Source: the human T2T-CHM13v2.0 reference genome, Homo sapiens
Assembly (NCBI GenBank): GCA_009914755.4
Contig: CP086569.2
Location: forward strand, 27,424,001 to 27,488,000
Length of the DNA stretch: 64,000 nucleotides
Direction: 5' to 3'
Shown here in pieces: positions 15,361-64,000 of the stretch. How positions within the stretch are numbered: the first letter of the stretch is position 1; each line of letters opens with the position of its first letter. Made by a program: the position numbers and the translations under genes. Under the pieces are notes generated by a model that made no database searches, was not told the DNA's origin, and worked only from the letters and a program-made list of their open reading frames with translations.

Positions 15361-15374
15361 GGCATGTAACTTTT
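15361..15374. repeat. Target-site duplication (5'-side copy) of the CCNQ retrocopy: ggcatgtaactttt.
   Basis: An identical 14-mer occurs at 14018..14031. The two copies bracket exactly the mRNA-derived segment. Confidence 0.8.
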
Positions 15375-20694: not shown

Positions 20695-20695
<1 letters not shown>

Positions 20696-25730: not shown

Positions 25731-25929
25731 AACCTGGTATATATGATAGCAAAATGTGTATATTTTAGAAGCTAACAAATATTTGGGAGAACAGTAGAAT
25801 TCATCTATCTTTGGGAAGAAAGTGCTTTGATCACTGTCTGGCAAAACATAACGGCGATATACATGTTTATTACATAGAAATTGATGTATATTCAAACATA
25901 TATATTTTATGTATATCTACCATACATAA

Positions 25930-28900
25930 AAATGAAATCAAATGGAATCGAATGGAATCGAATCAAATGGATTCGAATGGCATTGAATGAAATCAAATGG
26001 AATACAGTGAAGTGGAGTGGAGTAGAATGGAGTGGAAAGGAATGGGGTGGAATAGAATTGAATGGAGAGGAGTGGAGTGGAGCAGAGTGGAAAGGAGTGG
26101 AATGGAATGGAATGGGAAAAAATGGAATACGATGGAGTGGAGAGGAATGGAGCGCAGTGGAATGGAGTGGAATGGAAAGGAGTGGAGTGGAATGGAATGG
26201 AGTGGAGTGGAATGTAGTGGAATGGAATGGAATGGATTGGAATGGAATGGAGTGGAGTGGAATGGAGTGGAATGGAATGGAATGCAATGGAGTGGAATGG
26301 AAAGGAATGGAATGGAATCGAATCACATGGAATTGAGTCGAATCAAATCAAATTGAATCTAATTGAATCGAATGGAAAAAGTGGAATCAAATGGAATCGA
26401 ATGTAATCAAATCGAATGGATTCGAATTGCATCGAATGGAATTGAATGGAATGCGGAGAAGTGGAGTGGAGTGGAATGGAGTGGAATGGAAAGGGGTGGA
26501 ATGGAATTGAATGGAGTGGAGGGGAGTGCTGTGGAGGGAACTGGAGTGGAATAGAATGGAATGGGAAGGAATGGAATTGAATGGAGTGGAGTGGAGTAGA
26601 GTGGAGTGCAGGGGAGTGGAGTGGAGAGTAGTAGAATGGATTGGAGTGGAATGGAGTGGAGTGAAATGGAATGGAATGGAATGAACTGGAATGGAATGGA
26701 ATGGAATCGAATCACAAGGAACCAAATCAAATCGAATCAAGTGGAAAAAAATGGAATCAAATGGAAATGATCGAATGAATTCGAATGGCATCAAATGGAA
26801 TCGAATGGAATGTGTTGAAGTGGAGTGGAATGGAGAGCAATGGAATGGAATGGAATGCAGTGGAATAGAATTGAATGGAGTGGAGTGGAGTGGACTGGAG
26901 TAGAATGGAAAGGAATGGGAAGGAATGGAATTGAACGGAGAGGAGTAGAGTGGAGTAGAGTGGAGTGGAATGGAATGGAAGGGAATTGCATGGAATTGAA
27001 TTGAATCGAATTGGATGGAAAAAATGGAACCGAATGGAATTGAATGGAATCGAAACAAGTGCATTCAAATGGCTTCAAATGGAATCAAATGGAAGGTGGT
27101 GAATTGAAACAAAACGAATGGAAAAAATGGAACTGAATGGAAATGAAAGGACTAGAATTCAACAAATTCGAACGGCATCGAATGGAATCGAATGCAATGC
27201 GGGGAAGTAGAGTGGAGTACGAATGGAAGTGAATGCAATGTGGGGAAGTGGAATGGAGTGGAATAGAATGGGGTGGAATGGAATTGAATGGAGTGGAGTG
27301 AAGCGGACCAGAGTGAAATGGAATGGAATAGGAAGGAATGGAATGGAACAGAGTGGAGTGGAGTGGAATGGAGTGGAATGTAGAGCAGTGGAATGGAGTG
27401 GAGTGGATTGGAATGGACCATAGTGGAGTGGAATCAAATGGAATGGAGTGGAGTGGAATGGAATAGAAAGGAGTGGAGAGTAATGGAATGGAATTTATTG
27501 GAGTAAAGTGGAGTGGAGTGGAATGGAGTGGAGTGGAGTGGAATGGAATGGAATGGAATGGAATGGAACGGAATGGAGTGGAGTGGAATGGAATGGAATC
27601 AAATCTGATGGAATCGAATCACATGGAATTCAATCAAATCGAATGGAATCGAATGGAAAAAAGGGAATTGAATGGAATCAAAGGTAACTGAATTGAATGG
27701 ATTCGAATGGCATCGAATGGAATTGACTGGAATGTGATGAAGTGGAGTGGAGTGGAATGGAGTGGAATGGAATGGGGTGGAATGGAATTGAATGGAGTGG
27801 AATGGAGTGGAGTGACATGGAGTGGATTGGAGTGGAGTGGAGTGGAATGGAATGAAATGGAATGGAGTGGAATGGAACAGAATGGAATGGAATGAAATCT
27901 AATCACATGGAATTGAATCAAATCGAATTAAATGGAAAAAATGGAACCAAAGGGAATCGAATCGAGTGGATTCCAACGGCATCGAATGGAATCAAATGGA
28001 AGGTGGTGAAGTGGAGTGGTGTTGAGTGGAATGGTGTGGAATGGAATTGAATGAATTGGCATGGAGTGGAATGGAGGGGACTGGAATGGAAAGGAATGGA
28101 AAGGGAAGAAATGGAATTGAATGGAGTGCAGTAGAGTGGAGTGCAGTGGAGTGGAGTGGAGTGGATTGCAGTGGAATAGAGTGGAGCGGAATGGAATGGA
28201 ATGGAATGGAATGGCATGGAATGGGATGGAATGGAATGGAATCACATGGAATCGAATCAAATCAAATGGAATTGAATCAAATTGAATCAAATGGAAAAAA
28301 TGGAATTGAATGGAATCTAATCGAATGGATTAAAATGGCATAGAATGGAATCGAATGAAATGCGGTGAAGTGGAGTGGAGTGGAATGGAGTAGAATGAAA
28401 TGGAATGGGAAGGAAAGGAACTGAATGCAGTGGAGTGGAGTGGAGTGGCACGGAGTGGATTGGAGTGGAATGGAGTGGAGTGGAATGGAATGGAATGGAA
28501 TGGAATGGAGTGGAATGGAATGGAATTGAATGGAGTGGAATGGAACGGAATGGAATGGAATGGAATCAAATCACATGGAATTGAATCAAATCGAATTGAA
28601 TGGAAAAAATGGAACCAAATGGAATCGAACGGAATCGAATCAAGTACATTCGAAGGGCATCAAATGGAATCAAATGGAAGGCGGTGAAGTGGAGTGGTGT
28701 TGAGTGGAATGGTGTGGAGTGGAATTGAATGGAGTGGAGTGGAACGGAGATGACTGGAATGGAAAGGAATGGAATGGGAAAGAATGGAATTCAAAGGAGT
28801 GGAGTGGAGTGCAGTGGAGTGGATTGGAGTGGAATAGAGTGGAGATGAATGGAATGGAATGCAATCGACTTGAATAGCATGGAATGGAATGGAATCGCAA

Positions 28901-31900
28901 GGAATCAAATCAAATAGAATGGAATTGAATCAAATAGAATCAAATGGAAAAATGGAATTGAATGGAATCTAATCAAATGGATTAAAATGGTGTAGAATGG
29001 AATCAAATGGAATGCAGAGAAGTGGAGTGGAGTGGAGTAGACTGGAGTGGAATGGAATGGAATGGGAAGGAATGGAATTCAATGGAGTGGAGTGGAGTGC
29101 AGTGGAGTGGAATGGAGTGGCATGGAGTGGATTGGAGTGGAATGGAGTGGAGTGGAATGGAATGGAATGGAATGGAAACGAATGGAATAGAATCAAATTG
29201 AATCGATTCAAATCAAATGGAAAAAATGGAATCGAATGGAATTGAAAAGATTCGAATGGCATCGAATGGAATCAAATGGAATGCCATGAAGTGGAATGGA
29301 GTGGAATGGAGTGGAATGGAAAGGAGTGGAAAGGAATTGAATGAAGTGGAGTGGAGTGCAGTTGAGTGGAGTGGAGTGGAGTGGAATGGAATGGGATGGG
29401 AAAAAATGGAATGGAATGGAGTGGAGTGGAGTGGAAAGGAGTGGAGTGGAATGGAATGGTGTGAAATGGGTGGAATAGAATGGAATGGAATCGAATCGAA
29501 TCACATGGAATCAAATTGCATCGAATAGAATCAAATCAAATCAAATCGAATCAAATGGAAAAAAATGGAATCAAATGGAATCGATAGAATGCAATCAAAT
29601 GGCATCAATTGGAATTGAAAGGAATGCGATGAAGTGGAGAGGAGTGGAGTGGAATAGAATGCGGTGGAATGGAGTTGAATGGAGTGGAGTGGAATGGATT
29701 GGAGTGGAGTGGAGTGGAATGGAATGGAATGGAATGGGAAGGAATGGAATTGAACAGAGTGGAATGGAGTGGAATGGAATAGAGAGGAGTAGAGTGGAGT
29801 GGAGTGGAATGGAATGGAATGGAATCACATGAAATTGAAAAGAATTGAATCGAATCGAATAAAATTGAAATGAATGGAAAAAGTGGAATCGAATGGAAAT
29901 GAATGGAATCGAATTGAACGGATTCGAACAGCATCAAATGGAATTGAATCCAACGTGGTGAAGTCGAGTGGAGTGCATGGGAGTGGAATGGCATGGGGTG
30001 GAATGGAATTTAATGGAGTGGAGTGGAGTGGAGCGGAATGGAATGGAGTGGAAGGAAAGGAATGGAATGGAAGGGAATTTAATTGAATCACATGGAATTG
30101 AATCAAATCGAATCAAATGGAAAAAATGGAATGGAATGGAATCGAATGGAATGAAATTAAATTGCATGGAATCAAATCATATGGAATCGAATTGAATCGA
30201 ATCTAATAGAATGGAAAAAATGGAATCAAATGGAATCGAACCGAATGGATTTGAATGGCATTGAATGAAATTGAATGGAATGCGGTGAAGTGGAGTGGAT
30301 TGGAATGTAGTGGAATGGAAAGTGGTGGAATGGAATTGAAAGGTGTTGAGTGGAGTGGAGTAGAAAGGACTGGAGTGGAATGGAAGGGAATGGGAAGGAA
30401 TGGAATTGAACAGAGTGGAGTGGAGTAGGGTGGAATGGAGAGGAATGGAGTGGAAAGGAGTGGAATGGAGTGAAGTGGAGTGGAATGAACTAGAGTGGAG
30501 TGGAATGGAGTAGAGTGGAATTGAATAGAATGGAATCAAATCCAATCAACTCGAATGGAAAAAATGGAACTGAATGGAATAAAATGGAATCAAATCAAAC
30601 GGATTGGAATGGCAGGAAATGGAATTGAATGGAATGGAATGGAGTGAAGTGGAATGGAGTGAAGTGGAATGGAGTGGAATGGAATGGGGTGTAATGGAAT
30701 TGAAAGGAATGGAGTGTACTGGAATAGAATGGAATGGAATGGGAAGAATGGAATTGAATGCAGTGGAGTGGAGTGAAGAGCAGTGGAGTGGAGTGGAATG
30801 GAGTGGAGTGGATTGTAGAGGAATTTAGTGGAGTGGAATGGAATGGAATGGAAAGGAATTAAGTGGAAAGGAATGGATTGGAAAGGAACGGGATGAAAAG
30901 GAATCAAATGGAATCGAATCAAATTGAATCAAATAAAAAAATGGAATTGAATGGAATCGAATGGAATCGAATCGAATGGATTTGAATGGCATCGAATGGA
31001 ATCGAGTGGAATGCGGTGAAGTGGAGTGGAGAGGAATGGGGTGGAAAGGAATGGAGTGAAGTGGAGTGGAGAGGAATGGAATGGAGTGGACTGGAATGGA
31101 ATGGAATGGAATTGAGACAAATTGCACGGAATTGAATCGGATGGAATCAAATCAAATCAAATCAAATTGAATCAAAAGGAAAAGGAATCGAATGGAATCA
31201 AATGAAATGGATTCAAATGGCATCAAAAGGAATCAAATGAAATGCGGTGAAGTGGAGTGGAGTGGAATGGAGTGGAATGGAATGGGGAGGAATGGAATTG
31301 AATGGAGTGCAGTGGAGCGAAGTGGAGTGTATTGGAGTGGACTGGAGTTGAATGGAATGGAATGGGAAGGAATGGAATTGAAAGGAGTGGAGTGGAGAGA
31401 AATGGAGTGGAGTGGAGTGGAATGGAGTGGAATGGAATGGAAAGGAAACGAATGGAATGGAATTGAATCAGATGGAATCAAATCGCATGGAATTGAATCG
31501 AATCGAATAGAATCGAATGGAAAAAATGGAGTCGAATGGAATCGAATGGAATCGAATTGATTGGATTCGAATGGCATCGAATGAAATCGAATGGAATCCG
31601 GTGAAGTGGAGTGGAGTGGACTGGAATGTAATGGAATGGAATGGGGTGGAATGGAATTAAATGGTGTGGAGCGGAGTGGAGTTGAGAGGACAGGAGTGTA
31701 ATGGAATGAAAAGGGAAGGAATGGAATTGAACGAAGTTGCATGGAGTGGAGTGCAGTGAAGTGGAGTGGAGTGGATTGGAGTGGAATTGAGTGGAGTGGA
31801 GGGGAATGGAATGGAATGGAATGGAATTGCATGGAATCAAATCGAATCAAAATGAATTGAATCAAATCAAAAGGAAAAAAGGGAATCAAATGGAATTGAA

Positions 31901-34900
31901 TTGAATGGAATAGAATGGCATCAAATGGATTCGAATGGAAAGCGTGGAAGTGGAGTGGAGTGGATTGGAGTGGAATGGAATGGAGTGGAGTGGAATGGAA
32001 TGTAGTGGAGTGGAATGGGATGGAATGGAATGGAATGCAATGGGGTCGAACAGCATGAAATCGAATTGCATGGAATCAAAATGAATCGAATCAAATCAAA
32101 TCAAATCAAATGGAAAAAGTGGATTTGAATGGCATCAAATGGAGTCGAACGGAATGCGGTGAAGTGGAGGGGAGTGGAGTGGAATGGAGTGGAATGTAAT
32201 TGGGTGGAATAAAATTGAATGAAGTGAAGTGGAGTGCAGTGGAGTGGACTGTAGTGAAATGGAATGGAATGGGAAGGAATGAAATTGAGCAGAGTGGAGT
32301 GGCGTGGAGTGGAGTGCAGTGGAGTGGAGTGGAATGGAGTGAAATGGAGTGGAACCGAATGGAATGCAATGAAATGGAATGGAATGGAATTGAATTGCAT
32401 GTAATCAAATAGCTTGGAATCAAAATGAATCAAATCAAATGGAAAAAATGGAATCGAGTGTAATCAAATGCCATCAAATGGAATCAAATGGAATGCAGTG
32501 AAGAGGAGTGGAGTGGATTGGAGTGGAGTGGAGTGGACTGGAGTGGAATGGAATGGAATGGGAAGGAATGGAATAGAACGGAGTGGAGTGGAGTGGAGTG
32601 CAGTGGCATGCAGTGGAGTGGAGTGGATTAGAGTGGATTGGAGTGGAATGGCGTGGAGTGGAGTGGAATGGAATGAAATGGACTGGACTGGAATGGAATG
32701 GAATGGAATGGAATTGAATCACATTAAATCGAGTCGAATCACATCAAATCGAATGGAAACAATGGAATAGAATGGAATCAAATGGAATCAAATCGAATGG
32801 ATTTGAAAGACATCGAACACATTTGAAAAGATTGCTGTAAAGTGGAGTGGAGTGGAATGGAGTGGAATGGAATGGGATGGAATGGAATTGAATGGAGTGG
32901 AGTCGAGTGGAGTGGAGTGGACTGGAGTGGAGTGGACTGGAGTGGAATGCAATGCAATGGGAAGGAATGGAATTGAACAGAGAGCAGTGGCATGTAGTGG
33001 AGTGGAATGGAATGGAATGGAGTGGAGTGGAAAGGAATGGAATGGAGTGGAATGGAATGGAAAGGAATGGAATGGAGTAGAGTGGAGAGGAATGGAATTG
33101 AATGGAGTCAAATCGCATGAAATCGTATCGAATCAAATTGAATTGAATCGAAACGAATAAAATGGAAAAAGTGGAATTGAATGGAATTGAATCGAATGGA
33201 TTTGAATGGCACCCAATGAAATCGAATAGAATGTGGTGAAGTGGAGTGAAGTGGAACGGAATGGAATGGAATGGGGTGGAATGGAATTGAGAGGAGTGGA
33301 GTGGAGTGGATTGTAATGGAGTGGAGAGAAATAGAGTGGAATGGAATGGAATGGAATGGTACGGAATGGAATTGCATGGATTCGCATGGAATCTCATGGA
33401 AACAAATAAAATCGAATGGAATCAATCGAATGGATTCGAATGGAATCGAATAGAATCCAATGGAATGCAGTGAAGTGGAGTGCAGTTGAGTGGAATGGAG
33501 AGGAAGGTAATGGGATGGAAAGGAATGGAGTGGAGTGGAGAGGAGTGGAATGAAACGGATGAGAATGGAGATGAATGGAATGGAATGGAATAGAATGGAA
33601 TGAAATAGCATGGAATCGAATAACATGGAATAGAATCAAATGGAATTGAAAGGAAAAAATGGAAACGAATGGATTTGAATGGAATCAAATTGAATGGATT
33701 CAAATGTCATCGAAAGGAATCGAATGGAATGTGGTGAAGTGGAGTGGATTGGAATGGGGTTGTATGGAATTGAATGGAGTGTAGTGGAATGGAGCAGAGT
33801 GTAGTGGACTGGAGTGGAATGGAATCGAATTGGAAGGAATGGAATTGAACAGAGTGGAGTGGAGTGGAAAGGAGTGGAGTGGAGTGGAGTTGAATGGAAT
33901 GGAATGGAGTGGAATGGAATGGAATCCAATTGCATGGAATTCAATCGCATGGAATCAAAGCAAATCAAATCGAACCGAATGGAAAAAATGGAATAGAATG
34001 TAATCGAATGGAATAGAATTGAATGGACTTGAATGGCATCGAATGTAATCGAAAGGAATGCAGTGAAGTAGAGTGGAGTGGACTGGAATGTAGTGGAATG
34101 GAATGGGGTGGAATGGAATTGAATGGTGTGGAGCGGAGTAAAGTAGAGAGGACTCAAGTGGAATGGAATGGAATGGGAAGAAATGGAATTGAGCAGAGTG
34201 GAGTGGAGTGCAGTGGAGTGGAGTGGAATGGAGTGGAGCAGAATGGATTGGAGTGGAATGGAGTGGAGTGGAATCGATTGCAATGGAATGCAATGGACTT
34301 GAATGGAATGGAAAAGAATGGAATTGCATGGAATCAAATTGAATTGAATAGAAAAAATGGAATCAAATGGAATAGAAAGGAATTGAATCAAATGGAATCG
34401 AATGGTATCGAAGGGAATCAAATGAAATGCGGTGAAGTGGAGAGGAGTGGAGTGGAATGGAATGGAATGGAATGGAATGGAATGGAATGGAAAGGAGTAG
34501 AGTGGAATGGAATGTACTGGAGTGGAATAAAATTTAATGGAATGGAATGGAATCGAATAGCATGAAAATGAATAACATGGAATCAAAATGAATTAAATCG
34601 AAACGAATCAAATCGAATGGAAAATGTTGATTTGAATGGCATCAAATGGAATCGAATGGAATGTGGTGAAGTGGAGAGGAATGGACTGGAATGGAATGGG
34701 TGGAATGGAATTGAATGGAGTGGAGTGGAGTGGACTGTAGAGGAATGGAATGGGAAGGAAGGGAATTGAAAGGAGTGGAGTGGGGTGCAGTTGGTTGGAG
34801 TGGAGTGGAGAGGATTGGAGTGGAATGTGGTGGAGTGGAATGGGTTTCAATGGAATGCAGTGAACTTGAATGGAATGGAATGGAATGGAATCACATGGAA

Positions 34901-37900
34901 TCAAATTGAATGAAATCAAAATGAATCGAATTGAATAGAATGGAAAAAATAGAATCGAATGGAATTAAATGTCACGAAAAGGAATTGAGTGGAGTGAGGT
35001 GAAGTGGAGTGGAGTGGAATGGAATTGAATGGAAAGGAGTGGAGTGGAATGATGTATTGAATTGGAATGGAATGGAATGGAATAGAATGGAATGAAATTG
35101 AATAGCATGAATTCGAATCCCATGGTAACAAATTGAATCGACTTGAATCGAATCAAATCGAATGGAAAAAGTAGAATCGAATTGCATCGAATGGAATGTG
35201 CTGAAGTGGAATGGAGTGGAATGTAGTGGAATGGAATGGGTTGGAATGGAAAGGAATGAGTGGAGTTGAGTGTAGTGTAGTGAGTGTAGTGGAGTGGACT
35301 GTAGTGGAATGGAATGGAATGGGAAGGAATGCAATTGAACGGAGTGGAGTGGAGAGGAGTGCAGTGGTTTGGAGTGGATTGGAGTGGAATGGAGTGGAGT
35401 GGAATGGAATGGAATGGACTGGAATGGAATGGAAAGGAATGGAATCAAATCGAATTTAATTGAATCAAATCAAATTGAATGAAAAAAATAGAATTGAATG
35501 GAATCAAATGGAATCGAATGGAATCAAATCAAATGGATTCAAATTGCATAGAATGGAATCAAATGGAATGCGGTGAAGTGGAGTGGACATGAATGGAGTG
35601 GAATGGAATGGGTTGGAATGGAATTGAGTGGATTGGAGTGGAGTGAAGTGGAGTGGAGTTGAGTGGAGTGAAATGGAATGGAATGCAATGGAATGGAATT
35701 GAATCAAATGGAAAAAATGGAAACGAATGGAATCGAAACATATGGCTATGAAAGGCATAGAATGGAATTGAAAGGAATGCGGTGAAGTGGAGTGGAGTGG
35801 AATTGAGTGGAATGGAATTGGGTGGAATGGATTTAACAGGAGTGGAGTGGAGAGTGGTGGACTGGAGTGGAATGGAATGGGAAAGAATGAATTTGAATGG
35901 AGTGGAGTGGAGTGTAATGGAAAGGAGTGGATTGGAGAGGAGTGGAGTGCAATGGACTGGAGTGGAGTGGATTGGAGTGGAATGGAGTGGAGTGGAATGG
36001 AATGGGATGTACTGGAAGGGAATGCAATAGAATGGAATTGCATGAGGTTGAATTGAATCGAATTGAATGGAAAAAAAAGGAGTCGAATGGAATTGAACGG
36101 AATCAAATCAAATGGATTCAAATGGCAGCGAATGGAATCGAATGGAATGCGATGAAGTGGAGTGTAGAGGAATGGAGTGCAACGGATTTTGGTGGAATGG
36201 AATTGAATGGACTGGAGTGGAATGTAGTGGACAGGAGTGGAATGGAATGTAATGGGAAGGAATGGAATTGAACGGAGTGGAGTACAGTGGAATGGAGAAA
36301 AGTAGTGTGGAAAGGAATGGAGTGGAATGTGATGGAGTGGAATGGAGTGGAATGGAATGGAATGGAACAGAGTGGAGTGGAGTGGAGTGAAATGGAGTGG
36401 AGTGGAGTGTAATGCAATGGAATGGAATGGAATGCAATAGAGAGGAGTGGAGTGGAGTGGATTGGAGTGCAGTGTAGTGTAGTATAGTATAGGGCAATGG
36501 AATGGAATGGAAAGGAATGGAGTTGAGTGGAGTGGTGTGGAGTGGAGAGGAGTGGAGTGGAATGGAGAGGAGTGGAGTGCAGTGAAGTGGACCAGATTAG
36601 AGTGGAATGGAATGCAGTGGAGTTGAATGGAATGTAATGAAGTGGAATTTAGTGGAATGAAGTGGAATGGAATGGAATGGAGTAGAGAGGAATGGAATGG
36701 AGTGTAGTGGAATGGAAGGGATTGTAGTGGATTGGAGTGGAACGGAATGGAATTGAGTGGTAGGGACTGGAATGGAATGGAATGGAATCAAATCAAAGGG
36801 AATCTAATCTAATCAAAATGAATCACATCGAATTGAATGGAAAAAATGGAATTGAATGGAATCGAAAGGAATCAAATCGAATGGAATAGAATAGCATAGA
36901 ATGGAATCAAATGGAATGAGGTGAAGTGGAGTGGAGGGGAATGGATTGGAATGAAATGGGTTGGAAAGGAATCGAACGGACTGGAGTGGATTGAACTGGA
37001 GTGGAGTGGAATGGTACGGAGTGGAAAGTAGTGGAGTGGAGTGGATTGGTGTGGAATGCAGTGGAGAGGAGTGGAGCGGAGGGGATTGGAGTGGAATGGA
37101 GTGGAGTGGAATGGAATGGAATGGAATGGAATGAATTGGACCGGAATGCAATGGAATGGAATGGAATAGCATAAAATCGAATCAAAGCAAATTGAATCGA
37201 TTTGAATCGAATTGTATGGAAAAAAATGGAATCAAATGGAATCCAATAGAATGGATTCGAATAGCATCGAATGGAATTGAATGGAATGCGGGGAAGTGGA
37301 CTGGAGTGGAATGGAATGGGGTGGAATAGAATTGAATGGAGTGGACTGGAGTGGATTGGAGTGGAATGGAATGGAGTGGGAATGAATGGAATTGAATGGA
37401 GTGGAGTGGAGGTGAGTGCAGTGGAATGGAGAGGAATGGAGTGAAGTGGAGTGGAATGGACTAGAGTGGAATGGAATGGTGCAGACAGGAATGGAATGAA
37501 GTGGAGTGGAAGGGAATGGAATGGAATTGACTGGAATGGAGTGGAATGGAATGGAATAGAGTGGAATGAAATGGAAAGGAATGGAATGGAATGGAGTAGA
37601 ATGGAATGGAATGGAATAGAGTGGAGTGGAGTCGAGTGGATTGGAATGGAATGGAACGGAATGAGTTGAAACGAAATTGAATTGTAGGGAATCGAATCAA
37701 ATCAAATCAAATCAAATCACATCAAAACGAATAGAATGGAAAAAATGGAAGTGAATGGAATAGAATGGAATCGAATCAAATGAATTTGAATGGCATCAAA
37801 TGGAGTCAAATGGAATGTGGTGAAGTGGAGTGGAGAGGAGTGGAATGGAGTAGAATGGAGTGGAATGGAGTGGAATGGAGTGGAGTGGAAGGGAGTGGAA

Positions 37901-38400
37901 AGGAGTGGAATGGCGTGGATAGGTATGAAATGGAATGCATTGGAATGGAGTGGAATGGAATGCAATGAATGGAATCGGATGGAATTGAAACGAATCAAAT
38001 CAAATTGAATCGAATGGACCAAATGGAATCAAATGATATCAAACAAAATTGAATCAAACGGAATTGAATGGAATAGAATGAAATCAAATGGAAAGTGGTG
38101 AAGTGGAGTGTAGTGGAATGGAGTTTAATGGAATGGGTTGGAATGGAATTGAATGGACTGGAGTGGATTGGAGTGGAATGAAGTGGAGTGAGTGGAGTGG
38201 AATGGAGAGGAAAGTAGTTTAGTGGAGTGGATTGGAGTGGAATGGAGTGGAGTGGAATGGAATGGATTGGACTGAAATGGAATGGAATGGAATCAAATGG
38301 AATTGCATGGAATCAAATTGAACCAAATCTAATCAAATTTAATAGAATCAAAAGGGAAAAGTGGAATCAAAAGAAATCAAATTCAATGGATAGGAAAGGC
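25930..38400 (+). repeat. Divergent, irregular edge domain of the satellite array with no clean higher-order periodicity.
   Basis: The translated ORF patterns do not recur at a fixed spacing. Sub-blocks have differing composition, for example the GGAGT-rich stretch at about 36.25 to 36.8 kb that lacks aatcgaat motifs. Confidence 0.7.
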
Positions 38401-38479
38401 ATCGAATGGAATTGAATGGAATGCGATGAAGTGGAGTGGAGTAGAATGGAGTGGAATGGAATCGGATGAAATGGAATTG

Positions 38480-38690
38480 AATGGAGTGGAGTGGTGTGGA
38501 GTGGACGGAGTATAATGGAATGGGAAGAAATGGAATTGAATGGAGTGGACTTGAGTGGGGTGGAATGGAGAGGAATGGAGGGGAAACGAGTGGAATGGAG
38601 GGGAAAAGAGAGGAATGGAGGGGAAAGTACTGGAAAGGAGTGAAGTGGAGGGGAATGGAGTAAAGTGGAATTGAATGCAGTGGAGTGGAA
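38480..38690 (+). repeat. Local micro-tandem duplication of a unit of about 24 to 25 bp, roughly 3 to 4 copies, at the boundary of the HOR domain.
   Basis: The sequence 'gaggaatggaggggaaacgagtggaatggaggggaaaagagaggaatggaggggaaagtactggaaaggagtgaagtggaggggaatgg' is present here but absent from the corresponding position of the later HOR copies. Confidence 0.6.
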
Positions 38691-54900: not shown

Positions 54901-57900
54901 GTGCAATGGAATGGAATGGCATCAAATCGCATGGTAATGAATCAAATGGAATCAAATCGAATGGAAATAATGGAATCGAAGGCAAACGAATGGAATCGAA
55001 TTGCACTGATTCTACTGACTTCGAACAAAATGAAATGAAACGCGGTGAAGTGGAATGGAGTGGAATGTATTGGGTGGAATGGAATAGAATGGTGTGGAGT
55101 GGAGCGGAGTGCCCAGGAGGGGAATGGGAAGAAATGGATTTGAACGGAGTGGAGTGGAGTGGAATGGGGCATAATGGAGTGGAATAGTGTGGAGTGGAGT
55201 AGAGTGGAATGGGTTGGAATGGAATGCAGAGGACAGGATTGGAGTGCGTTGGACTGGAGTGGAGTAGAGTTGAGTGGAGTGGAGTGGATTGAAATAGAGC
55301 GGAGCAGAGTGGGATGGAATTGAATCACATGGTATTGAATCAAATCGAATGGAATTAAATCGAATGTAAAAATGGAATCAAATGTAAACGAATGGAGTCA
55401 AACCACATTGGTTAAACTGACATCGAATAATATCAAAAGAAATGTGGTGAAGTGGAGTGGAGTGTAACGAAATGGAGTGGAATGAAATTGAATGGAGTGG
55501 GGTAGATTGGAGTCTACTGGAGTGGAATAGAATGGAATGGAAAGGAATGGAATAGAATGGAGTGAAGTGCAGTGCAGTGAAATGGAGTGGAAAGGAATGG
55601 AATGGAATGGAATCCAATGGAGTCGAAGTGAATCGAATCTAATGAAATTGATCGGAAAAAATGGAATGGAGTAGAATAGAAGAAGATGGATTCAAAAGGC
55701 AACAAATAGAATGAATGGAATGCGGTGAGTTGGAGGGCATTGGAATGGAGTTGAATGGAATGGGGTGTAATTGAATTGAATGGAGTGGAGTGGATTGTAG
55801 TGGACTGGAGTGGAATGGAACGGAATGGGCAGGAATGGAATTGAAAGGGGTGAATTGGAATTGAGTGCTGTGGACTGGAGAAGACTGCATTGTAGCGGAT
55901 TGGAGTGGAAAGAACTGGAGTGGAATGGAATGGAATGCAATGGAGTGGGGTGGAATGGAATGGAGTGGAGTAGAATGGAATTTAATGGAGTGGAGTGGAA
56001 TTGAGTGGAATGGAGAGTAATGGAGTGGAGTGGACTGGAGCGAAGTGGAGTGTAGTGCATTGGACTGTAGGGGATTGAAGTGGCTTGGAGTGCAATGGAG
56101 TGGAGTGGAATGGAATGTAATGCAATGGAATGGAATGGAATGGAATGTAGTGGAATGGAATCGAATCACATGGAACTGAATCAAATCGAATTGAATGAAA
56201 TTGAATGGAAAAAATGGAATCCAATGGAATCAAATCGAATGGATTCGAATGACATTGAATGGAATCGAAATGAATGCAGTGAGGTGGAGTTGAGTGGAGT
56301 GGAGTGGAATGGAATGGGATGAATGGAATTGACTGGAGAGGAGTGGAATGGAATGGAATGGAAAGCAATGGAATTGAACGAAATGGAGTGTAGTAGAATG
56401 TAGTGGATTGGAGTGGAGTGCCGGGGAGTGCAGTGAAATGAAGAGGATTGTAGTTGAATGGAATGGAATGGTATGGAACGTACTGGAATGGAATGGATAA
56501 GAACGGAATGGAATGGAATCGCATGGAATTGAAAAGAATCAAATCGAATTGAATAGAATCAAATGGAAAAAATGGAGGCAAATGGAATCGAATGTCATAG
56601 AATCGAACGGTTTTGAATGTCAGTGAATGGAAACGAATGGAATGCGATGAAGTGGAGCGGAGTGGAGTGGAAAGGAGTGCAATGGAATAGGGTGGAACAG
56701 AATTTAATGGAACAGAGTGGATTGGAGTGGACTGGAGTGGAATGGAAAGGGAAGGAATGGGATTGAAAGGAGTGGCGTGCAGTGGAGTGGAGTGGCATGG
56801 AGTGGAGTGGAGTGGAATGGAGTGGAATGGAATGGAGTGGAATGGAGTGGATTGGAATGGAATGGAGTGCAGAGGAATGGAATGGAATGGTATAGAGTGG
56901 ACAGGAATGGAGTGGAGTGGATTGGAATGGAATGGAATGTAAGGGAATGGAACTGAATGGACTGGAATGGAATGGAATAGAATGGAATCGCAGGGAATCA
57001 AATTGGATTGAATCGAATCGAATGGAAAAAATGAAAACAAATGAAATTGAATGGAATCGAATTGAATGTAAACAATGGAATCCAATGGAGTCAAATGGAA
57101 TCGAATCAAATGGTTTTGAATGGCATCAAATGAAATGGCATGGAAGGCAGTGAATTGGAGTGGAGTGGAATAGAGAGGAATGAATTGGAATGGAGTGTAG
57201 TGGAATGGAGTGGATTCCAATGGATTGGAGTGGATTGGATTGGAATGGAATGGAATAGATTGGATTGGAGTGGTGCAGAGTGGAGTGGACTGGAGTGCAG
57301 AGGAATGGAGTGGAGTGAAGTCCAGTTGAGTGGAATGGAATGGAGTGGAGCAGAGTGGAATGCAAAAGAATGAAGTGGATTGTTATGGAATGGAATGGCG
57401 TGGAATGGCGTGGAATAGAATGGAATTGAATCGTATGGAATGATACCAAATCAAATCGAATCAAACGGAAAATTATGAATCCAATGGAATCGAAAGGATT
57501 CTAAAGGAATGGATTCGAAAGGCATTGAATGGAATGGAAAGGAATGCAATGGAGTGGAGTGGATTGGAATGTTTTAGAGTAAACTTGGGTGGATTGGAAA
57601 TCTATGGAGAGGAGTGCAGTGAAGTGGATTGGAGTGGAATGGAGTGCAATGGACTGGAGTGGACTGGAATGGATTGGAGTGGAGTGGAGTGGATCGGAGC
57701 AGAGTGCCGTGGAGTGGACTAGAGTGAGGTGGAGTGGAGTGCATTGGAGTGGAATGGAGTGGAGTGGGGTGCAACGGAATGGAATGGCATCAAATCGCAT
57801 GGTAATGAATCAAATGGAATCAAATGGAATGGAAATAATGGAATCGAAGGCAAACGAATGGAATCGAATTGCACTGATTCTACTGACTTCGAACAAAATG

Positions 57901-60900
57901 AAATGAAACGCGGTGAAGTGGAGTGGAGTGGAATGTATTGGGTGGAATGGAATAGAATGGTGTGGAGTGGAGTGGAGTGCCCAGGAGTGGAATGGGAAGA
58001 AATGGAATTGAACGGAGTGGAGTGGAGTGGAATGGGGCATAATGGAGTGGAATAGTGTGGAGTGGAGTAGAGTGGAATAGGTTGGAATGGAATGCAGAGG
58101 ACAGGATTGGAGTGCGGTGGACTGGAGTGGAGTAGAGTTGAGTGGAGTGGAGTGGATTGAAATAGAGTGGAGCAGAGTGGGATGGAATTGAATCACATGG
58201 AATTGAATCAAATCGAATGGAATTAAATCGAATGAAAAAATGAAATCAAATGTAAACGAATGGAGTCAAACCACATTGGTTAAACTGACATCGAATAATA
58301 TCAAAAGAAATGTGGTGAAGTGGAGTGGAGTGTAACGAAATGGAGTGGAATGAAATTGAATGGAGTGGGGTCGATTGGAGTCTACTGGAGTGGAATGGAA
58401 TGGAATGGAAAGGAATGGAATAGAATGGAGTGAAGTGCAGTGCAGTGAAATGGAGTGGAAATGAATGGAATGGAATGGAATGGAATCAAATGGAATCGAA
58501 GTGAATCGAATCTAATGAAATTGATCAGAAAAAATGGAATGGAGTAGAATCGAATAATATGGATTCAAAAGGCAACAAATAGAATGAATGGAATGCGGTG
58601 AGTTGGAGGGCAATGGAATGGAGTTGAATGGAATGGGGTGTAATTGAATTGAATGGAGTGGAGTGGATTGGAGTGGACTGGAGTGGAATGGAACGGAATG
58701 GGCAGGAATGGAATTGAAAGGGGTGAATTGGAATTGAGTGCTGTGGATTGGAGTAGACTGCATTGTAGTGGATTGGAGTGGAAAGAAGTGGAGTGGAATG
58801 GAATGGAATGCAATGGAGTGGAGTGGAATGGAATGGAGTGGATTAGAATGGAATTTAATGGAGTGCAGTGGAATTGAGTGGAATGGAGAGTAATGGAGTG
58901 GAGTGGGCTGCAGCGAAGTGGAGTGTAGTGCATTGGACTGTAGGGGATTGAAGTGGCTTGGAGTGCAATGGAGTGGAGTGGAATGGAATGTAATGGAATG
59001 GAATTGAATGGAATGGAATGGAGTGGAATAGAATTGAATCACATGGAACTGAATCAAATCGAATTGAATGAAATTGAATGGAAAAAATGGAATGAAATGG
59101 AATCAAATCGAATGGATTCGAATGACATTGAATGGAATCGAAAGGAATGCAGTGAGGTGGAGTTGAGTGGAATGGAGTGGAATGGAATGGGATGAATGGA
59201 ATTGACTGGAGAGGAGTGGAATGGAATGGAATGGAAAGTCATGGAATTGAAAAAAATGGAGTGTAGTAGAATGTAGTGGATTGGAGTGGAGTGCAGGGGA
59301 GTGCAGTGGAATGAAGTGGAGTGTAGTTGAATGGAATGGAATGGTATGGAACGTACAGGAATGGAATGGATAAGAATGGAATGGAATGGAATCGCATGGA
59401 ATTGAATAGAATCAAATCGAATTGAATAGAATCAAATGGAAAAATGGAGTCAAATGGAATCGAATGGCATAGAATGGAACGGTTTTGAATGTCAGTGAAT
59501 GGAAACGAATGGAATGCGATGAAGTGGAGCGGAGTGGAGTGGAAAGGAGTGCAATGGAATAGGGTGGAACAGAATTTAATGGTACAGAGTGGATTGGAGT
59601 GTACTGGAGTGGAATGGAATGGGAAGGAATGGGATTGAAAGGAGTGGCGTGCAGTGGAGTGGAGTGGCATGGAGTGGAGTGGAGTGGAATGGAGTGGAAT
59701 GGAATGGAGTGGAATGGAGTGGATTGGAATGGAATGGAGTGCAGAGGAATGGAATGGAATGGTATAGAGTGGACAGGAATGGAGTGGAGTGGATTGGAAT
59801 GGAATGGAATGTAAGGGAATGGAACTGAATGGACTGGAATGGAATGGAATAGAATGGAATCGCAGGGAATCAAATTGGATTGAATCGAATCGAATGGAAA
59901 AAATGAAATCAAATGAAATTGAATGGAATCGAATTGAATGTAAACAATGGGATCCAATGGAATCCAATGGAATCGAATCAAATGGTTTTGAATGGCATCA
60001 AATGAAATGGCATGGAAGGCAGTGAATTGGAGTGGAGTGGAATAGAGTGGAACGAATTGGAATGGAGTGTAGTGGAATGGCGTGGATTCCATTGGAGTGG
60101 AGTGGATTGGATTGGAATGGAATGGAATAGATTGGATTGGAGTGGTGCAGAGTGGAGTGGACTGGAGTGCAGAGGAATGGAGTGGAGTGAAGTCCAGTTG
60201 AGTGGAATGGAATGGAGTGGAGCAGAGTGGAATGCAATAGAATGAAGTGGAATGGTATGGAATGGAATGTCGAGGAATGACGTGGAATAGAAAGGAATGG
60301 AATCGCATGGAACGATACCAAATCAAATCGAATCAAACGGAAAATTATGAATCCTATGGAATCGAAAGGATTCTAAAGGAAGGGATTCGAAATGCATTGA
60401 ATGGAATGGAAAGGAATGCAGTGGAGTGGAGTGGAGTGGAATGTTTTAGAGTGAACTTGGGTGGATTGGAACTCTATGGAGAGGAGTGGAGTGAAGTGGA
60501 TAGGAGTGGAATGGAGTGCAATGGACTGGAGTGGAGTGGAATGGATTGGAGTGGAGTGGAGTGGATCGGAGTGGAGTGCCGTGGAGTGGACTAGAGTGAG
60601 GTGGAGTGGAGTACATTGGAGTGGAATGGAGTGGAGTGGGGTGCAATGGAATGGAATGGCATCAAATCGCATGGTAATGAATCAAATGGAATCAAATGGA
60701 ATGGAAATAATGGAATCGAAGGCAAACGAATGGAATCGAATTGCACTGATTCTACTGACTTCGAACAAAATGAAATGAAACGCGGTGAAGTGGAGTGGAG
60801 TGGAATGTATTGGGTGGAATGGAATAGAATGGTGTGGAGTGGAGTGGAGTGCCCAGGAGGGGAACGGGAAGAAATGGAATTGAAGGGAGTGGAGTGGAGT

Positions 60901-63900
60901 GGAATGGGGCATAATGGAGTGGAATAGTGTGGAGTGGAGTAGAGTGGAATGGGTTGGAATGGAATGCAGAGGACAGGATTGGAGTGCGTTGGACTGGAGT
61001 GCAGTAGAGTTGAGTGGAGTGGAGTGGATTGAAATAGAGCGGAGCAGAGTGGGATGGAATTGAATCACATGGTATTGAATCAAATCGAATGGAATTAAAT
61101 CGAATGTAAAAATGGAATCAAATGCAAACGAATGGAGTCAAACCACATTGGTTAAACTGACATCGAATAATATCAAAAGAAATGTGGTGAAGTGGAGTGG
61201 AGTGTAACGAAATGGAGTGGAATGAAATTGAATGGAGTGGGGTCGATTGGAGTCTACTGGAGTGGAATAGAATGGAATGGAAAGGAATGGAATAGAATGG
61301 AGTGAAGTGCAGTGCAGTGAAATGGAGTGGAAAGGAATGGAATGGAATGGAATCAAATGGAATCGAAGTGAATCGCATCTAATGAAATTGATCGGAAAAA
61401 ATGGAATGGAGTAGAATCGAAGAAGATGGATTCAAAAGGCAACAAATAGAATTGAATGGAATGCGGTGAGTTGGAGGGCATTGGAATGGAGTTGAATGGA
61501 ATGGGGTGTAATTGAATTGAATGGAGTGGAGTGGATTGTAGTGGACTGGAGTGGAATGGAACGGAATGGGCAGGAATTTAATTGAAAGGGGTGAATTGGA
61601 ATTGAGTGCTGTGGATTGGAGTAGACTGCATTGTAGTGGATTGGAGTGGAAAGAAGTGGAGTGGAATGGAATTGAATGCAATGGAGTGGGGTGGAATGGA
61701 ATGGAGTGGAGTAGAATGGAATTTAATGGAGTGGAGTGGAATTGAGTGGAATGGAGAGTAATGGAGTGGAGTGGACTGGAGCGAAGTGGAGTGTAGTGCA
61801 TTGGACTGTAGGGGATTGAAGTGGCTTGGAGTGCAATGGAGTGGAGTGGAATGGAATGTAATGCAATGGAATGGAATGGAATGGAATGTAGTGGAATGGA
61901 ATCGAATCACATGGAACTGAATCAAATCGAATTGAATGAAATTGAATGGAAAAAATGGAATCCAATGGAATCAAATCGAATGGATTCGAATGACATTGAA
62001 TGGAATCGAAATGAATGCAGTGAGGTGTAGTTGAGTGGAGTGGAGTGGAATGGAATGGGATGAATGGAATTGACTGGAGAGGAGTGGAATGGAATGGAAT
62101 GGAAAGCAATGGAATTGAACAAAATGGAGTGTAGTAGAATGTAGTGGATTGGAGTGGAGTGCCGGGGAGTGCAGTGAAATGAAGAGGATTGTAGTTGAAT
62201 GGAATGGAATGGTATGGAACGTACTGGAATGGAATGGATAAGAACGGAATGGAATGGAATCGCATGGAATTGAAAAGAATCAAATCGAATTGAATAGAAT
62301 CAAATGGAAAAAATGGAGGCAAATGGAATCGAATGTCATAGAATCGAACGGTTTTGAATGTCAGTGAATGGAAACGAATGGAATGCGATGAAGTGGAGCG
62401 GAGTGGAGTGGAAAGGAGTGCAATGGAATAGGGTGGAACAGAATTTAATGGAACAGAGTGGATTGGAGTGGACTGGAGTGGAATGGAAAGGGAAGGAATG
62501 GGATTGAAAAGAGTGGCGTGCAGTGGAGTGGAGTGACATGGAGTGGAGTGGAGTGGAATGGAGTGGAATGGAATGGAGTGGAATGGAGTGGATTGGAATG
62601 GAATGGAGTGCAGAGGAATGGAATGGAATGGTATAGAGTGGACAGGAATGGAGTGGAGTGGATTGGAATGGAATGGAATGTAAGGGAATGGAACTGAATG
62701 GACTGGAATGGAATGGAATAGAATGGAATCGCAGGGAATCAAATTGGATTGAATCGAATCGAATGGAAAAAATGAAAACAAATGAAATTGAATGGAATCG
62801 AATTGAATGTAAACAATGGAATCCAATGGAGTCAAATGGAATCGAATCAAATGGTTTTGAATGGCATCAAATGAAATGACATGGAAGGCAGTGAATTGGA
62901 GTGGAGTGGAATAGAGAGGAATGAATTGGAATGGAGTGTAGTGGAATGGCGTGGATTCCAGTGGAGTGGAGTGGATTGGATTTGAATGGAATGGAATAGA
63001 TTCTATTCGAGTGGTGCAGAGTGGAGTGGACTGGAGTGCAGAGGAATGGAGTGGAGTGAAGTCCAGTTGAGTGGAATGGAATGGAGTGGAGCAGAGTGGA
63101 ATGCAAAAGAATGAAGTGGATTGTTATGGAATGGAATGGCGTGGAATGGCGTGGAATAGAATGAAATTAAATCGCATGGAATGATACCAAATCAAATCGA
63201 ATCAAACGGAAAATTATGAATCCAATGGAATCGAAAGGATTCTAAAGGAATGGATTCGAAAGGCATTGAATGGAATGTAAAGGAATGCAGTGGAGTGGAG
63301 TGGAGTGGAATGTTTTAGAGTAAACTTGGGTGGATTGGAAATCTATGGAGAGGAGTGCAGTGAAGTGGATTGGAGTGGAATGGAGTGCAATGGACTGGAG
63401 TGGACTGGAATGGATTGGAGTGGAGTGGATTGGATCGGAGCGGAGTGCCGTGGAGTGGACTAGAGTGAGGTGGAGTGGAGTGCATTGGAGTGGAATGGAG
63501 TGGAGTGGGGTGCAACGGAATGGAATGGCATCAAATCGCATGGTAATGAATCAAATGGAATCAAATCGAATGGAAATAATGGAATCGAAGGCAAACGAAT
63601 GGAATCGAATTGCACTGATTCTACTGACTTCGAACAAAATGAAATGAAACGCGCTGAAGTGGAGTGGAGTGGAATGTATTGGGTGGAATGGAATAGAATG
63701 GTGTGGAGTGGAGTGGAGTGCCCAGGAGTGGAATGGGAAGAAATGGAATTGAACGGAGTGGAGTGGAGTGGAATGGGGCATAATGGAGTGGAATAGTGTG
63801 GAGTGGAGTAGAGTGGAATAGGTTGGAGTGGAATGCAGAGGACAGGATTGGAGTGCGGTGGACTGGAGTGGAGTAGAGTTGAGTGGAGTGGAGTGGATTG

Positions 63901-64000
63901 AAATAGAGCGGAGCAGAGAGGGATGGAATTGAATCACATGGAATTGAATCAAATCGAATGGAATTAAATCGAATGAAAAAATGGAATCAAATGTAAACGA
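52000..64000 (+). repeat. Dimeric supra-HOR of about 5.74 kb: two alternating ~2.87-kb HOR variants, with alternate copies nearly identical.
   Basis: Peptide markers alternate between copies. CPGV / GATEWNG / QRNGMASN occur at 52003, 57729 and 63470, while CPGG / GAMEWNG / QWNGMASN occur at 54861 and 60601. MEWIRMEF occurs at 52913 and 58653, while MEWSRMEF occurs at 55810 and 61551. The 79-aa pseudo-ORFs at 53849 and 59589 are identical and lie 5740 bp apart. The 304-aa pseudo-ORFs 53672..54586 and 59412..60326 have ends exactly 5740 bp apart. Confidence 0.8.

What the first reader, a model, noticed from the sequence alone, without database searches (positions are those of the whole stretch)
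25930..64000. Layered satellite organisation: a divergent irregular edge of ~12.5 kb, then a homogeneous 2.85-kb HOR
From 25.9 to about 38.4 kb the (GGAAT)n-derived units are diverged and show no fixed long-range period. From about 38.4 to 38.7 kb onward the array snaps into a 2.82 to 2.87-kb higher-order repeat with 9 copies, whose markers recur at 40454, 43273, 46147 ... 63330. This pattern of old, decayed monomers at the edge and homogenised HOR toward the interior is the layered organisation classically described for alpha satellite. Seeing it at single-base resolution for an HSat3-type array is worth noting. Copy-length differences of 55, 25, 20 and 5 bp are mostly multiples of the 5-bp unit, consistent with slippage or unequal exchange in pentamer register.
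Basis: seen in the sequence. Interest (0 to 1): 0.6.

Follow-up and report, generated by a model that had tools for sequence, protein, structure and literature searches.

The report
HSat3 array edge with 2.85-kb repeat
This is the boundary of a human-type satellite III (GGAAT-derived) array, where 12.7 kb of loosely similar ~340-bp units gives way abruptly to tandem copies of a 2.85-kb block; it is real and cleanly resolved, but it is an ordinary example of local amplification already described for such satellites.

Summary
An uninterrupted (GGAAT)n-derived array runs from 25,931 to the window end. Up to 38,652 no lag gives more than background similarity (~72%). From 38,653 a 2,819-2,874-bp unit repeats 8.85 times: 8 full copies and 2 partial ones. 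All multi-base length differences are whole pentamers (5-25 bp) at three pure-pentamer hotspots.

Three things were missed. First, the whole array is built from a ~340-bp composite monomer; the edge is a monomeric run and the 2.85-kb unit is a 7-monomer block. Second, the last 4-5 copies form a 5.74-kb dimer (98.6-98.8% against ~97% between neighbours). Third, the block is only moderately homogeneous (95.5-98.8%).

The alpha-satellite-style "layered, old decayed edge" reading is only partly supported. The junction is a sharp breakpoint within about 40 bp. The edge is not more decayed than the unit's own monomers, and it holds no transposon insertions or inversions. Only one side of the array is visible.

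The best explanation is local tandem amplification by unequal exchange within an older monomeric HSat3 (A4-like) array, with the array end left unhomogenised. Multi-kb nested tandem repeats and shifting periodicities in HSat3 are already published, so novelty and interest are low.

The parts
25931..38652 (+). Monomeric edge of the satellite array. It holds about 27 near-full-length and about 10 partial copies of a ~340-bp composite monomer (an ATC-rich GAATC/AAATC head followed by a GGAGT/GGAAT tail). There is no multi-kb period.
   Evidence: no lag above background. ATC-block spacing has a median of ~325 bp, the nhmmer monomer profile tiles the region, and mean monomer identity is 0.77.
27604..29180 (+). 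Weak relic of an older ~650-bp dimeric repeat inside the edge, about 2.5 units long.
   Evidence: alternate monomers are 0.74-0.82 identical against 0.67-0.74 for adjacent ones, and dimer-vs-dimer identity is 0.78-0.81 against 0.66-0.68 in two control regions; 672 bp is the top 24-mer distance in the edge; best monomer partners lie at lag 2.
38653..38690 (+). Junction (amplification breakpoint) between the monomeric edge and the first, truncated copy of the 2.85-kb unit. It lies inside a GGAGT/GGAAT tract, so built-in pentamer microhomology prevents exact placement.
   Evidence: homology starts at 38653, which is reference position 911; identity to the next period rises from ~0.7 to >=0.98 between 38,650 and 38,700; residue-level view of the junction.
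38653..40606 (+). Copy c0p of the 2.85-kb unit. It is partial (1,954 bp) and starts at unit position 911.
40607..52000 (+). Copies c1-c4 (2819, 2874, 2848 and 2853 bp). These are the older, more diverged copies: 95.6-97.3% identical to each other, with 27-52 private substitutions each.
52001..64000 (+). Copies c5-c8 (2873, 2868, 2872 and 2869 bp) and the partial c9p (518 bp), organised as a 5.74-kb dimer. The A type is c5, c7 and c9p; the B type is c6 and c8. c4 leans towards the B type.
   Evidence: 5741/5740 bp are the top 24-mer distances; lag 5741 gives 0.98-1.00; c5-c7 98.57%, c6-c8 98.61%, c7-c9p 98.84%, c5-c6 97.1%; shared sites c6+c8 14, c5+c7 11; 46 diagnostic A/B sites. PstI, MspI and NsiI sites recur 5,740 bp apart.
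52043..54915 (+). The seven monomers of one unit, shown for c5. Monomer starts are at 52043, 52441, 52740, 53289, 53653, 54167 and 54552. Lengths are about 398, 299, 549, 364, 514, 385 and 364 bp; the longer ones carry extra tail fragments.
   Evidence: The same monomer class across copies averages 0.94 identity (class means 0.88-0.97); different classes average 0.71.
52716..52736 (+). Length-variation hotspot 1, given in c5 coordinates: a (GGAAT)n tract with 0 to 5 extra pentamers between copies.
53240..53270 (+). Length-variation hotspot 2, given in c5 coordinates: a (GGAAT)n tract that varies by 5-20 bp between copies.
53924..53964 (+). Length-variation hotspot 3, given in c5 coordinates: a (GGAGT/GGAAT)n tract with +10 bp in c0p and -15 bp in c1 and c2.
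25416..25930 (.). Non-satellite flank directly next to the array: a diverged Alu on the minus strand followed by ~230 bp of AT-rich unique sequence. The array begins in the ATC-rich head of a monomer.
   Evidence: sequence; Alu mapping.

Best explanation
The region is the flank-proximal end of a pericentromeric, non-centromeric HSat3 array that looks like subfamily A4. It has four nested levels of repetition: the 5-bp GGAAT/GGAGT unit, a ~340-bp composite monomer, a 2.85-kb block of seven monomers, and a 5.74-kb dimer of that block.

The older state of the array is a run of diverged monomers. One 2.85-kb stretch of that kind of sequence was then amplified in tandem by out-of-register (unequal) exchange between sister chromatids or homologues, or by replication-associated duplication. 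The left limit of that amplification is the discrete breakpoint at ~38,653-38,690. A later round duplicated two units at a time, which gave the 5.74-kb period.

The 12.7 kb next to unique DNA stayed outside these exchanges. Misaligned exchange is least effective at array ends, so the end keeps unhomogenised repeats. Copy-length variation arises separately, by slippage of whole pentamers in three short pure-pentamer tracts.

Shown: the anatomy, the identities, the breakpoint and the indel register. Inferred: the exchange mechanism, the order of events and the subfamily.
For: - Sharp junction rather than a gradient: identity to the next period goes from ~0.7 to >=0.98 within ~50 bp.
- The edge has no trace of the 2.85-kb period, and none of its monomers belongs to the seven monomer classes of the unit (best class mean 0.81 against 0.88-0.97 within class).
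- The same ~340-bp monomer architecture, the same strand and an uninterrupted pentamer register run across the junction.
- The copy tree is ((c5,c7),(c6,c8)), with c1-c4 on long private branches and fewer private changes inward.
- The 5.74-kb lag gives 0.98-1.00.
- All multi-base indels are multiples of 5 bp inside pure pentamer tracts.
- A relic ~650-bp dimer in the edge shows that local amplification of monomer multiples had happened earlier and then decayed.
- The unit exists outside this assembly: 12 independent metagenome contigs (presumably host DNA) match the consensus at 87-98%, and one has two markers 2,889 bp apart.
- Literature: the centre of the Drosophila Rsp satellite array is homogenised, TEs cluster at array ends in the satellites studied, and the end-of-array model of McAllister & Werren 1999 is cited there (PMC5411766).
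Against: - Only one end of the array and ~25 kb of the repeat block are visible. I cannot say whether the block is small and bounded or the start of a large homogeneous core.
- The edge and the block differ somewhat in composition. GGAAT density is 55 vs 43 per kb. ATCGAATGGAATC occurs 12 vs 0 times. The HSat3A4 24-mer has exact hits 4 vs 0. This would also fit two arrays of separate origin placed side by side.
- No read-level or independent-assembly support for the junction or the copy number could be obtained.
- The mechanism is inferred from pattern only.
Confidence: 0.72

Rival explanations
1. Alpha-satellite-style layered expansion. A young repeat arose in the array interior and expanded. 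This pushed older layers outward, where they decayed into the irregular edge.
For: - There are two tiers with a steep identity step.
- Homogeneity rises inward.
- A relic dimer at ~80% identity in the edge could be an older layer.
- The layered model and its steep ~10% divergence step at the HOR boundary are described for alpha satellite. The authors also note comparable evolutionary patterns in non-centromeric satellites.
Against: - The edge is not more decayed than the unit's own monomers. It has a higher GGAAT density, a higher lag-5 match, and monomers that are more alike.
- The edge shows no decayed 2.85-kb periodicity.
- There are no TE insertions or inversions in 12.7 kb.
- Symmetry cannot be tested.
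- HSat3 arrays are not sites of kinetochore assembly (established knowledge), so the driver proposed for alpha satellite would not apply.
Confidence: 0.2
2. Two satellite domains of separate origin lie side by side. The 2.85-kb repeat block was seeded from another locus, for example another acrocentric short arm, and expanded next to a resident monomeric HSat3 array. In this reading the junction is an insertion or translocation breakpoint.
For: - The junction is sharp.
- No edge monomer belongs to a unit monomer class.
- The two parts differ in composition and diagnostic k-mers.
- HSat3A4 is reported on several acrocentric chromosomes and on Y (Table 1 of PMC4022460), so exchange between chromosomes is plausible.
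- Variant forms of the unit occur in other contigs.
Against: - Strand, monomer architecture and pentamer register are continuous across the junction, and no foreign sequence lies between the two parts.
- Edge-to-unit monomer identity (0.74) lies between edge-edge (0.77) and unit-unit (0.71). That is what a common pool would give.
Confidence: 0.15
3. Assembly artefact: the tandem copies or their number result from mis-assembly of a repeat.
For: Satellite arrays are prone to collapse or false expansion, and no reads were available to me.
Against: - Every copy carries 12-52 private substitutions and its own indel pattern.
- The copies form a consistent tree.
- The unit and its period are seen in independent assemblies.
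Confidence: 0.03

Closest known systems
Nested tandem repeats (NTRs) of HSat2/3 arrays, for example DYZ1 (3.6 kb, HSat3A6), the chr1 1.77-kb HSat2 unit and the chr15 1.8/3.6-kb HSat3A5 unit (Altemose 2014; Altemose et al. 2021/2022)
   Same: A multi-kb unit built from diverged (CATTC)n/(GGAAT)n pentamers is repeated head to tail at 95-99% identity. The periodicity is local and changes along the array.
   Different: The 2.85-kb period and its 5.74-kb dimer match none of the published unit sizes I could read. For HSat3A4 clones these are 1366, 1529, 1556, 1026 and 584 bp, and in-silico digests give no such fragments. This unit also resolves into seven recognisable ~340-bp monomers, which makes it more HOR-like than the NTR definition implies.
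Alpha-satellite HOR arrays with monomeric or divergent flanking layers (layered expansion model)
   Same: There is a hierarchy of monomer, HOR and super-HOR. Monomers within a unit are ~70-80% alike while whole units are 95-99% alike. There is a steep identity step at the boundary with a monomeric flank (model described).
   Different: The monomers have variable length (299-549 bp) and derive from a pentamer. The flank is not more diverged and has no TEs or inversions. Symmetry is untested and there is no kinetochore. The units are less homogeneous than active alpha HORs.
End-of-array effect in tandem repeats (McAllister & Werren 1999, as cited and illustrated for Drosophila Rsp in PMC5411766)
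   Same: Repeats in the array interior are homogenised by unequal exchange and conversion, while repeats at the ends escape it.
   Different: That model also predicts TE accretion at array ends, which is not seen in this 12.7-kb edge. Here the change is stepwise, at a breakpoint, rather than gradual.
Super-HORs of alpha satellite (n-mers of HORs repeated in tandem, annotated in T2T-HG002; PMC13477032)
   Same: Two distinguishable variants of the unit alternate (A-B-A-B-A) over at least 4.2 units, giving a 5.74-kb period (definition).
   Different: This is a different satellite family, and only ~2 dimer repeats are visible in the window.

Membership tests
HSat3 (classical human satellite III) | The array derives from the pentamer (CATTC)n = (GGAAT)n. 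| tested here: met
   TRF finds period 5, consensus AATGG, ~7,560 copies and 65% matches over 25,941-63,610. The lag-5 match is 0.64-0.69 against 0.28 in the flank.
HSat3 (classical human satellite III) | The array is not HSat2: it lacks the ATCATC-containing 23/26-bp HSat2 motif structure. | tested here: met
   ATCATC occurs 0 times in 38 kb of array. The HSat2A1, A2 and B diagnostic 24-mers have 0 hits at <=2 mismatches. Lags 23 and 26 are not enriched.
HSat3 (classical human satellite III) | The 10-mer A(T/C)TCGGGTTG is interspersed among the pentamers. This is the classical biochemical definition, which I recall from memory (Prosser et al. 1986). | tested here: not met
   There are 0 occurrences on either strand. 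Related motifs appear in the diagnostic 24-mers of HSat3B1 and B4 but not in those of the A subfamilies (Table 1). I therefore treat this as a feature of only some subfamilies, not of the k-mer-defined family. That reading is my inference.
HSat3 subfamily A4 (Altemose 2014) | Subfamily-specific 24-mers are present. | tested here: inconclusive
   Only the single most common 24-mer of each subfamily was available. The A4 24-mer is the only one with exact hits: 4, all in the edge. Within one mismatch it has 17 hits in the edge and 8 in the repeat block; the next best subfamily, A1, has 1. The full 24-mer list is truncated in the held copy, so the block's assignment is tentative.
HSat3 subfamily A4 (Altemose 2014) | Location on the acrocentric chromosomes 13, 14, 15, 21, 22, or on Y. 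| not testable with these tools
   No human reference genome is among the searchable collections.
Nested tandem repeat (NTR) of HSat2/3 | A multi-kb unit made of diverged pentamer sequence is repeated head to tail with high identity between units. | tested here: met
   There are 8 full and 2 partial units of 2,819-2,874 bp at 95.5-98.8% identity.
Higher-order repeat in the strict sense | The unit is composed of a discrete number of monomers of similar length. | tested here: inconclusive
   Each unit holds seven monomer-profile matches, with clean class structure across copies (same class averages 0.94, different classes 0.71). However, monomer lengths range from 299 to 549 bp because of extra tail fragments.
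Layered expansion architecture (alpha-satellite model) | A homogeneous core is flanked by a divergent monomeric layer, with a steep identity step between them. | tested here: met
   Only one flank could be examined.
Layered expansion architecture (alpha-satellite model) | The outer layers are older: they are more diverged and accumulate TE insertions and inversions. | tested here: not met
   The edge is closer to the ancestral pentamer, and its monomers are more alike than those inside the unit. It holds no TE and no inversion. The only hint of age is the relic dimer at ~80% identity.
Layered expansion architecture (alpha-satellite model) | Mirror symmetry of layers on both sides of the core. 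| not testable with these tools
   The window ends inside the repeat block at 64,000.

The most novel reading that the evidence does not exclude
HSat3 (A4-like) arrays have a true hierarchy of monomer (~340 bp), HOR (7-mer, 2.85 kb) and super-HOR (5.74 kb), with a monomeric layer at the array edge. This reproduces the architecture of alpha-satellite centromeres in a satellite that assembles no kinetochore. If it holds across whole arrays and on both flanks, it would argue that layered satellite architecture is a generic product of unequal exchange and not of kinetochore-linked selection.
Probability: 0.3. Interest if true: 0.45.

Novelty: new member of a known kind. Interest (0 to 1): 0.25.

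Why it matters
The region gives a base-resolution example of how a pentamer satellite builds successively longer repeat units. It also shows what the boundary of a local amplification looks like: a discrete breakpoint with pentamer microhomology, not a decay gradient.

Because HSat3 is not a kinetochore site, arrays like this can serve as a natural control for whether the layered structure of centromeric alpha satellite needs kinetochore-linked selection. Altemose et al. already raised that point. The ~340-bp monomer profile and the marker k-mers of the unit could be used to annotate this repeat type in complete assemblies.

Beyond that, this is an expected feature of an already annotated satellite class.

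Tried and rejected
- The repeat finder on the array was swamped by pentamer-level similarity and could not resolve the 2.85-kb unit. Only its 'no inverted repeats' result was useful. TRF is limited to periods <=500 bp and reported only the 5-bp level.
- Rfam at gathering thresholds found nothing in the window.
- The full list of HSat subfamily 24-mers (Dataset S2 of PMC4022460) is truncated in the held copy and does not contain the A4 k-mers. A proper k-mer classification was therefore not possible.
- The published Science version (PMC9233505) and Jarmuz 2007 (PMC1821104) are not held.
- I tried matching the unit to published HSat3A4 clone sizes by in-silico digestion. No enzyme gave 1366, 1529, 1556, 1026 or 584-bp fragments.
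- Scanning GTDB genomes for the unit marker found 0 hits.
- The metagenome contigs were checked for the edge or the junction, and none covers them.
- A pentamer-block shuffle null gives 0.42. It is too weak a null because it destroys the register, so I used the edge as the internal control instead.
- I asked whether the A/B dimer alternation extends to c0-c3. It does not: the states are mixed.
- I asked whether private substitutions are templated by neighbouring pentamers. There is only a modest excess (65 observed vs 49 expected, p = 0.008), and most private changes break the periodicity.
- The 5-bp-periodic patch at 20.6 kb is just an Alu poly-T tail.

Full report
**What the window is.** The first 25.9 kb is ordinary primate-type unique and interspersed DNA. 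At about 25,931 the sequence switches to a G-rich satellite that runs to the end of the window. GC skew jumps from about 0 to about +0.7 and stays there. TRF calls one period-5 array, consensus AATGG, with ~7,560 copies at 65% matches. Lag-5 periodicity is continuous, with no window falling to flank level, and there are no inverted repeats. The array therefore has no transposon insertion and no strand switch in 38 kb. The species cannot be fixed with the tools available. 'Human' rests on the Alu content, the HSat3-type sequence, and close matches in metagenome contigs that are presumably host DNA.

**Checking the observation.** A lag scan with 300-bp windows found no lag giving more than ~0.8 identity before ~38.9 kb. 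From there on, a lag of 2,819-2,874 bp gave 0.91-0.98. Over all lags 1-6 kb, the median best identity is 0.765 in the edge and 0.967 in the repeat block. BLAST of one copy against the window places in-register copies at:
- 38653 (partial, starting at unit position 911)
- 40607, 43426, 46300, 49148, 52001, 54874, 57742 and 60614 (full copies)
- 63483 (partial)

Upstream of 38,653 nothing exceeds ~74% over kilobase lengths, which is the background similarity of any two stretches of this satellite. Full-copy lengths are 2819, 2874, 2848, 2853, 2873, 2868, 2872 and 2869 bp. The observation, its coordinates and its copy lengths are therefore correct. The 'nine copies' are eight full copies plus two partial ones.

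**Length variation.** In a MAFFT alignment of the copies, every multi-base indel is 5, 10, 15, 20 or 25 bp. These indels sit in three short tracts of pure GGAAT or GGAGT/GGAAT, where whole pentamers are gained or lost. Five single-base indel sites account for length differences such as 26, 4 and 3 bp.

C-containing GAATC/AAATC blocks of 40-130 bp recur throughout the array, separated by GGAGT/GGAAT tracts. A profile built from nine such units (339 positions) tiles the entire array. The edge holds about 27 near-full-length monomers plus fragments. Each 2.85-kb unit holds exactly seven near-full-length monomers plus extra tail fragments, with monomer lengths of about 398, 299, 549, 364, 514, 385 and 364 bp.

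Across copies, monomers at the same position in the unit average 0.94 identity (class means 0.88-0.97), while different positions average 0.71. That is the signature of a higher-order repeat. The variable monomer length puts the unit between a strict HOR and the 'nested tandem repeat' of Altemose et al..

The strongest 24-mer distances are 5,741 and 5,740 bp. Copies c5, c7 and c9p are 98.6-98.8% identical, as are c6 and c8, while neighbouring copies are ~97% identical. Shared derived sites give ((c5,c7),(c6,c8)). PstI, MspI and NsiI sites recur every 5,740 bp. At 46 sites that distinguish the A and B types, c4 leans towards B and c0-c3 are mixed, so the dimer organisation covers roughly 49-64 kb.

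The copies are 95.5-98.8% identical, which is comparable to divergent rather than active alpha-satellite HORs. There is an inward trend. Best-partner identity rises from 96.2-97.3% (c0-c4) to 98.6-98.8% (c5-c9). Private substitutions fall from 27-52 per copy (c1-c4) to 12-19 (c5-c8).

**The junction.** Identity to the next period rises from ~0.7 to >=0.98 between 38,650 and 38,700. At residue level, homology becomes clean within about 40 bp of 38,653, inside a GGAGT/GGAAT tract. This is a breakpoint, not a decay gradient. It falls at unit position 911, inside the tail of the third monomer.

**Is the edge 'old and decayed'?** Not relative to the block.
- The edge has more intact GGAAT (55 vs 43 per kb) and a higher lag-5 match (0.685 vs 0.641).
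- Its monomers are more alike (0.77 in profile columns, 0.86 in raw pairwise alignments) than the seven monomers of the unit are to each other (0.71 / 0.82). The profile came from edge monomers, but the raw alignments give the same order.
- No edge monomer falls into any of the seven classes (best class mean 0.81).
- The edge holds no TE or inversion.

The one sign of an older event is a weak ~650-bp dimer at 27.6-29.2 kb. There, alternate monomers are 0.74-0.82 identical against 0.67-0.74 for adjacent ones, and dimers are 0.78-0.81 identical against 0.66-0.68 in control regions.

**Identity of the satellite.** The HSat2 signatures are absent. Among the most common diagnostic 24-mers of the 14 HSat2/3 subfamilies (Table 1 of PMC4022460), only the HSat3A4 one has exact hits: 4, all in the edge. 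Within one mismatch it has 17 hits in the edge and 8 in the block. It lies inside the monomer consensus. HSat3A4 is reported on chromosomes 13, 14, 15, 21, 22 and Y. The assignment is tentative for the repeat block, because the full k-mer list was not available. Published A4 clone unit sizes (584-1556 bp) do not match the 2.85-kb unit or its in-silico restriction fragments.

**Evidence from elsewhere.** A 24-mer present in all nine copies hits 12 contigs of public metagenome assemblies and none in GTDB genomes. The contigs match the unit consensus at 87-98%, and one carries two markers 2,889 bp apart. None is more than 96.6% identical to any copy in the window, and none covers the edge or the junction. 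The family must therefore be much larger than the nine copies seen here, but the junction has no outside confirmation. Four contigs share a consistent variant that diverges to ~87% after unit position ~2838. These are short-read assemblies of a satellite and may be chimeric.

**Mechanism.** The pattern fits successive local tandem amplifications by unequal exchange, or by replication-associated duplication, within an older monomeric array. The likely order is:
1. monomer multiples (the relic dimer),
2. a 7-monomer block,
3. pairs of blocks.

The array end escaped homogenisation, and pentamer slippage adjusted tract lengths. As a rough inference from my own knowledge of neutral rates (~0.5-1 x 10^-9 per site per year), 1.4% divergence between dimer copies would imply several million years, and 4% would imply tens of millions. 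Both would be less if satellites mutate faster. The copies near this edge are therefore not recent.

**Comparison with what is known.** Altemose et al. described multi-kb NTRs in HSat2/3. [quoted passage not shown] DYZ1 is a 3.6-kb HSat3 NTR. A homogenised array centre with unhomogenised ends, and the end-of-array model, are established for at least some other satellites. Super-HORs are annotated for alpha satellite. This locus is a well-resolved further example, not a new kind of organisation.

**Verdict.** The region is a new member of a known kind, of low to moderate interest.

Noticed in passing
window 14,529-15,365, minus strand: Two adjacent ORFs (155 and 112 aa) encode a cyclin-box-like protein. 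The closest solved structures are cyclin L2 and cyclin K (E ~2e-14), and Pfam gives only a weak CycT2-like_C hit. The ORFs lie in different frames, which suggests a processed pseudogene. From memory it resembles cyclin Q (FAM58A), which I did not verify. It could help place the window on a chromosome.
   Followed up: partly
Another Alu on the minus strand at 20,695-20,965 is preceded by a perfect T35 run and a (TTC)n stretch.
   Followed up: no
window 40,607-63,482 (the eight full copies): Differences between copies show an unusually low transition:transversion ratio (137:176), with many G>T (52) and T>A (31) changes. Only 14 are CpG transitions, although the unit holds 51 CpGs. Derived bases match the base 5 bp away slightly more often than chance (65 vs 49 expected, p = 0.008). 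The cause of this spectrum is unexplained.
   Followed up: partly
L001, L004, L007 and L010 (metagenome contigs): Four independent contigs are 96-98% identical to each other. Three of them (L001, L004, L007) follow the window's unit at 94-96% up to unit position ~2838 and then continue colinearly at only ~86-88%; L010 matches the unit at ~87% overall. This suggests a second consistent variant of the unit elsewhere in the genome. L010 shows a self-lag of ~3.07-3.13 kb. These are short-read assemblies and may be chimeric.
   Followed up: partly
L001-L012: Twelve contigs in public metagenome assemblies consist of this satellite unit and are presumably host DNA. None was found in one genome per GTDB species. 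Satellite contamination of microbial sequence databases was also reported in the T2T-Y paper.
   Followed up: no
window 25,931-38,652 compared with 38,653-64,000: Several k-mers separate the two parts. ATCGAATGGAATC occurs 12 times in the edge and never in the block. Exact copies of the HSat3A4 24-mer occur only in the edge. MboI, AccI and BstXI sites occur almost only in the block, while AvaII and ClaI sites occur only in the edge.
   Followed up: partly
window 25,881-26,336, both strands: ORFs of 139-151 aa run through the start of the satellite. They arise because the pentamer repeat lacks stop codons and give no sign of coding.
   Followed up: no
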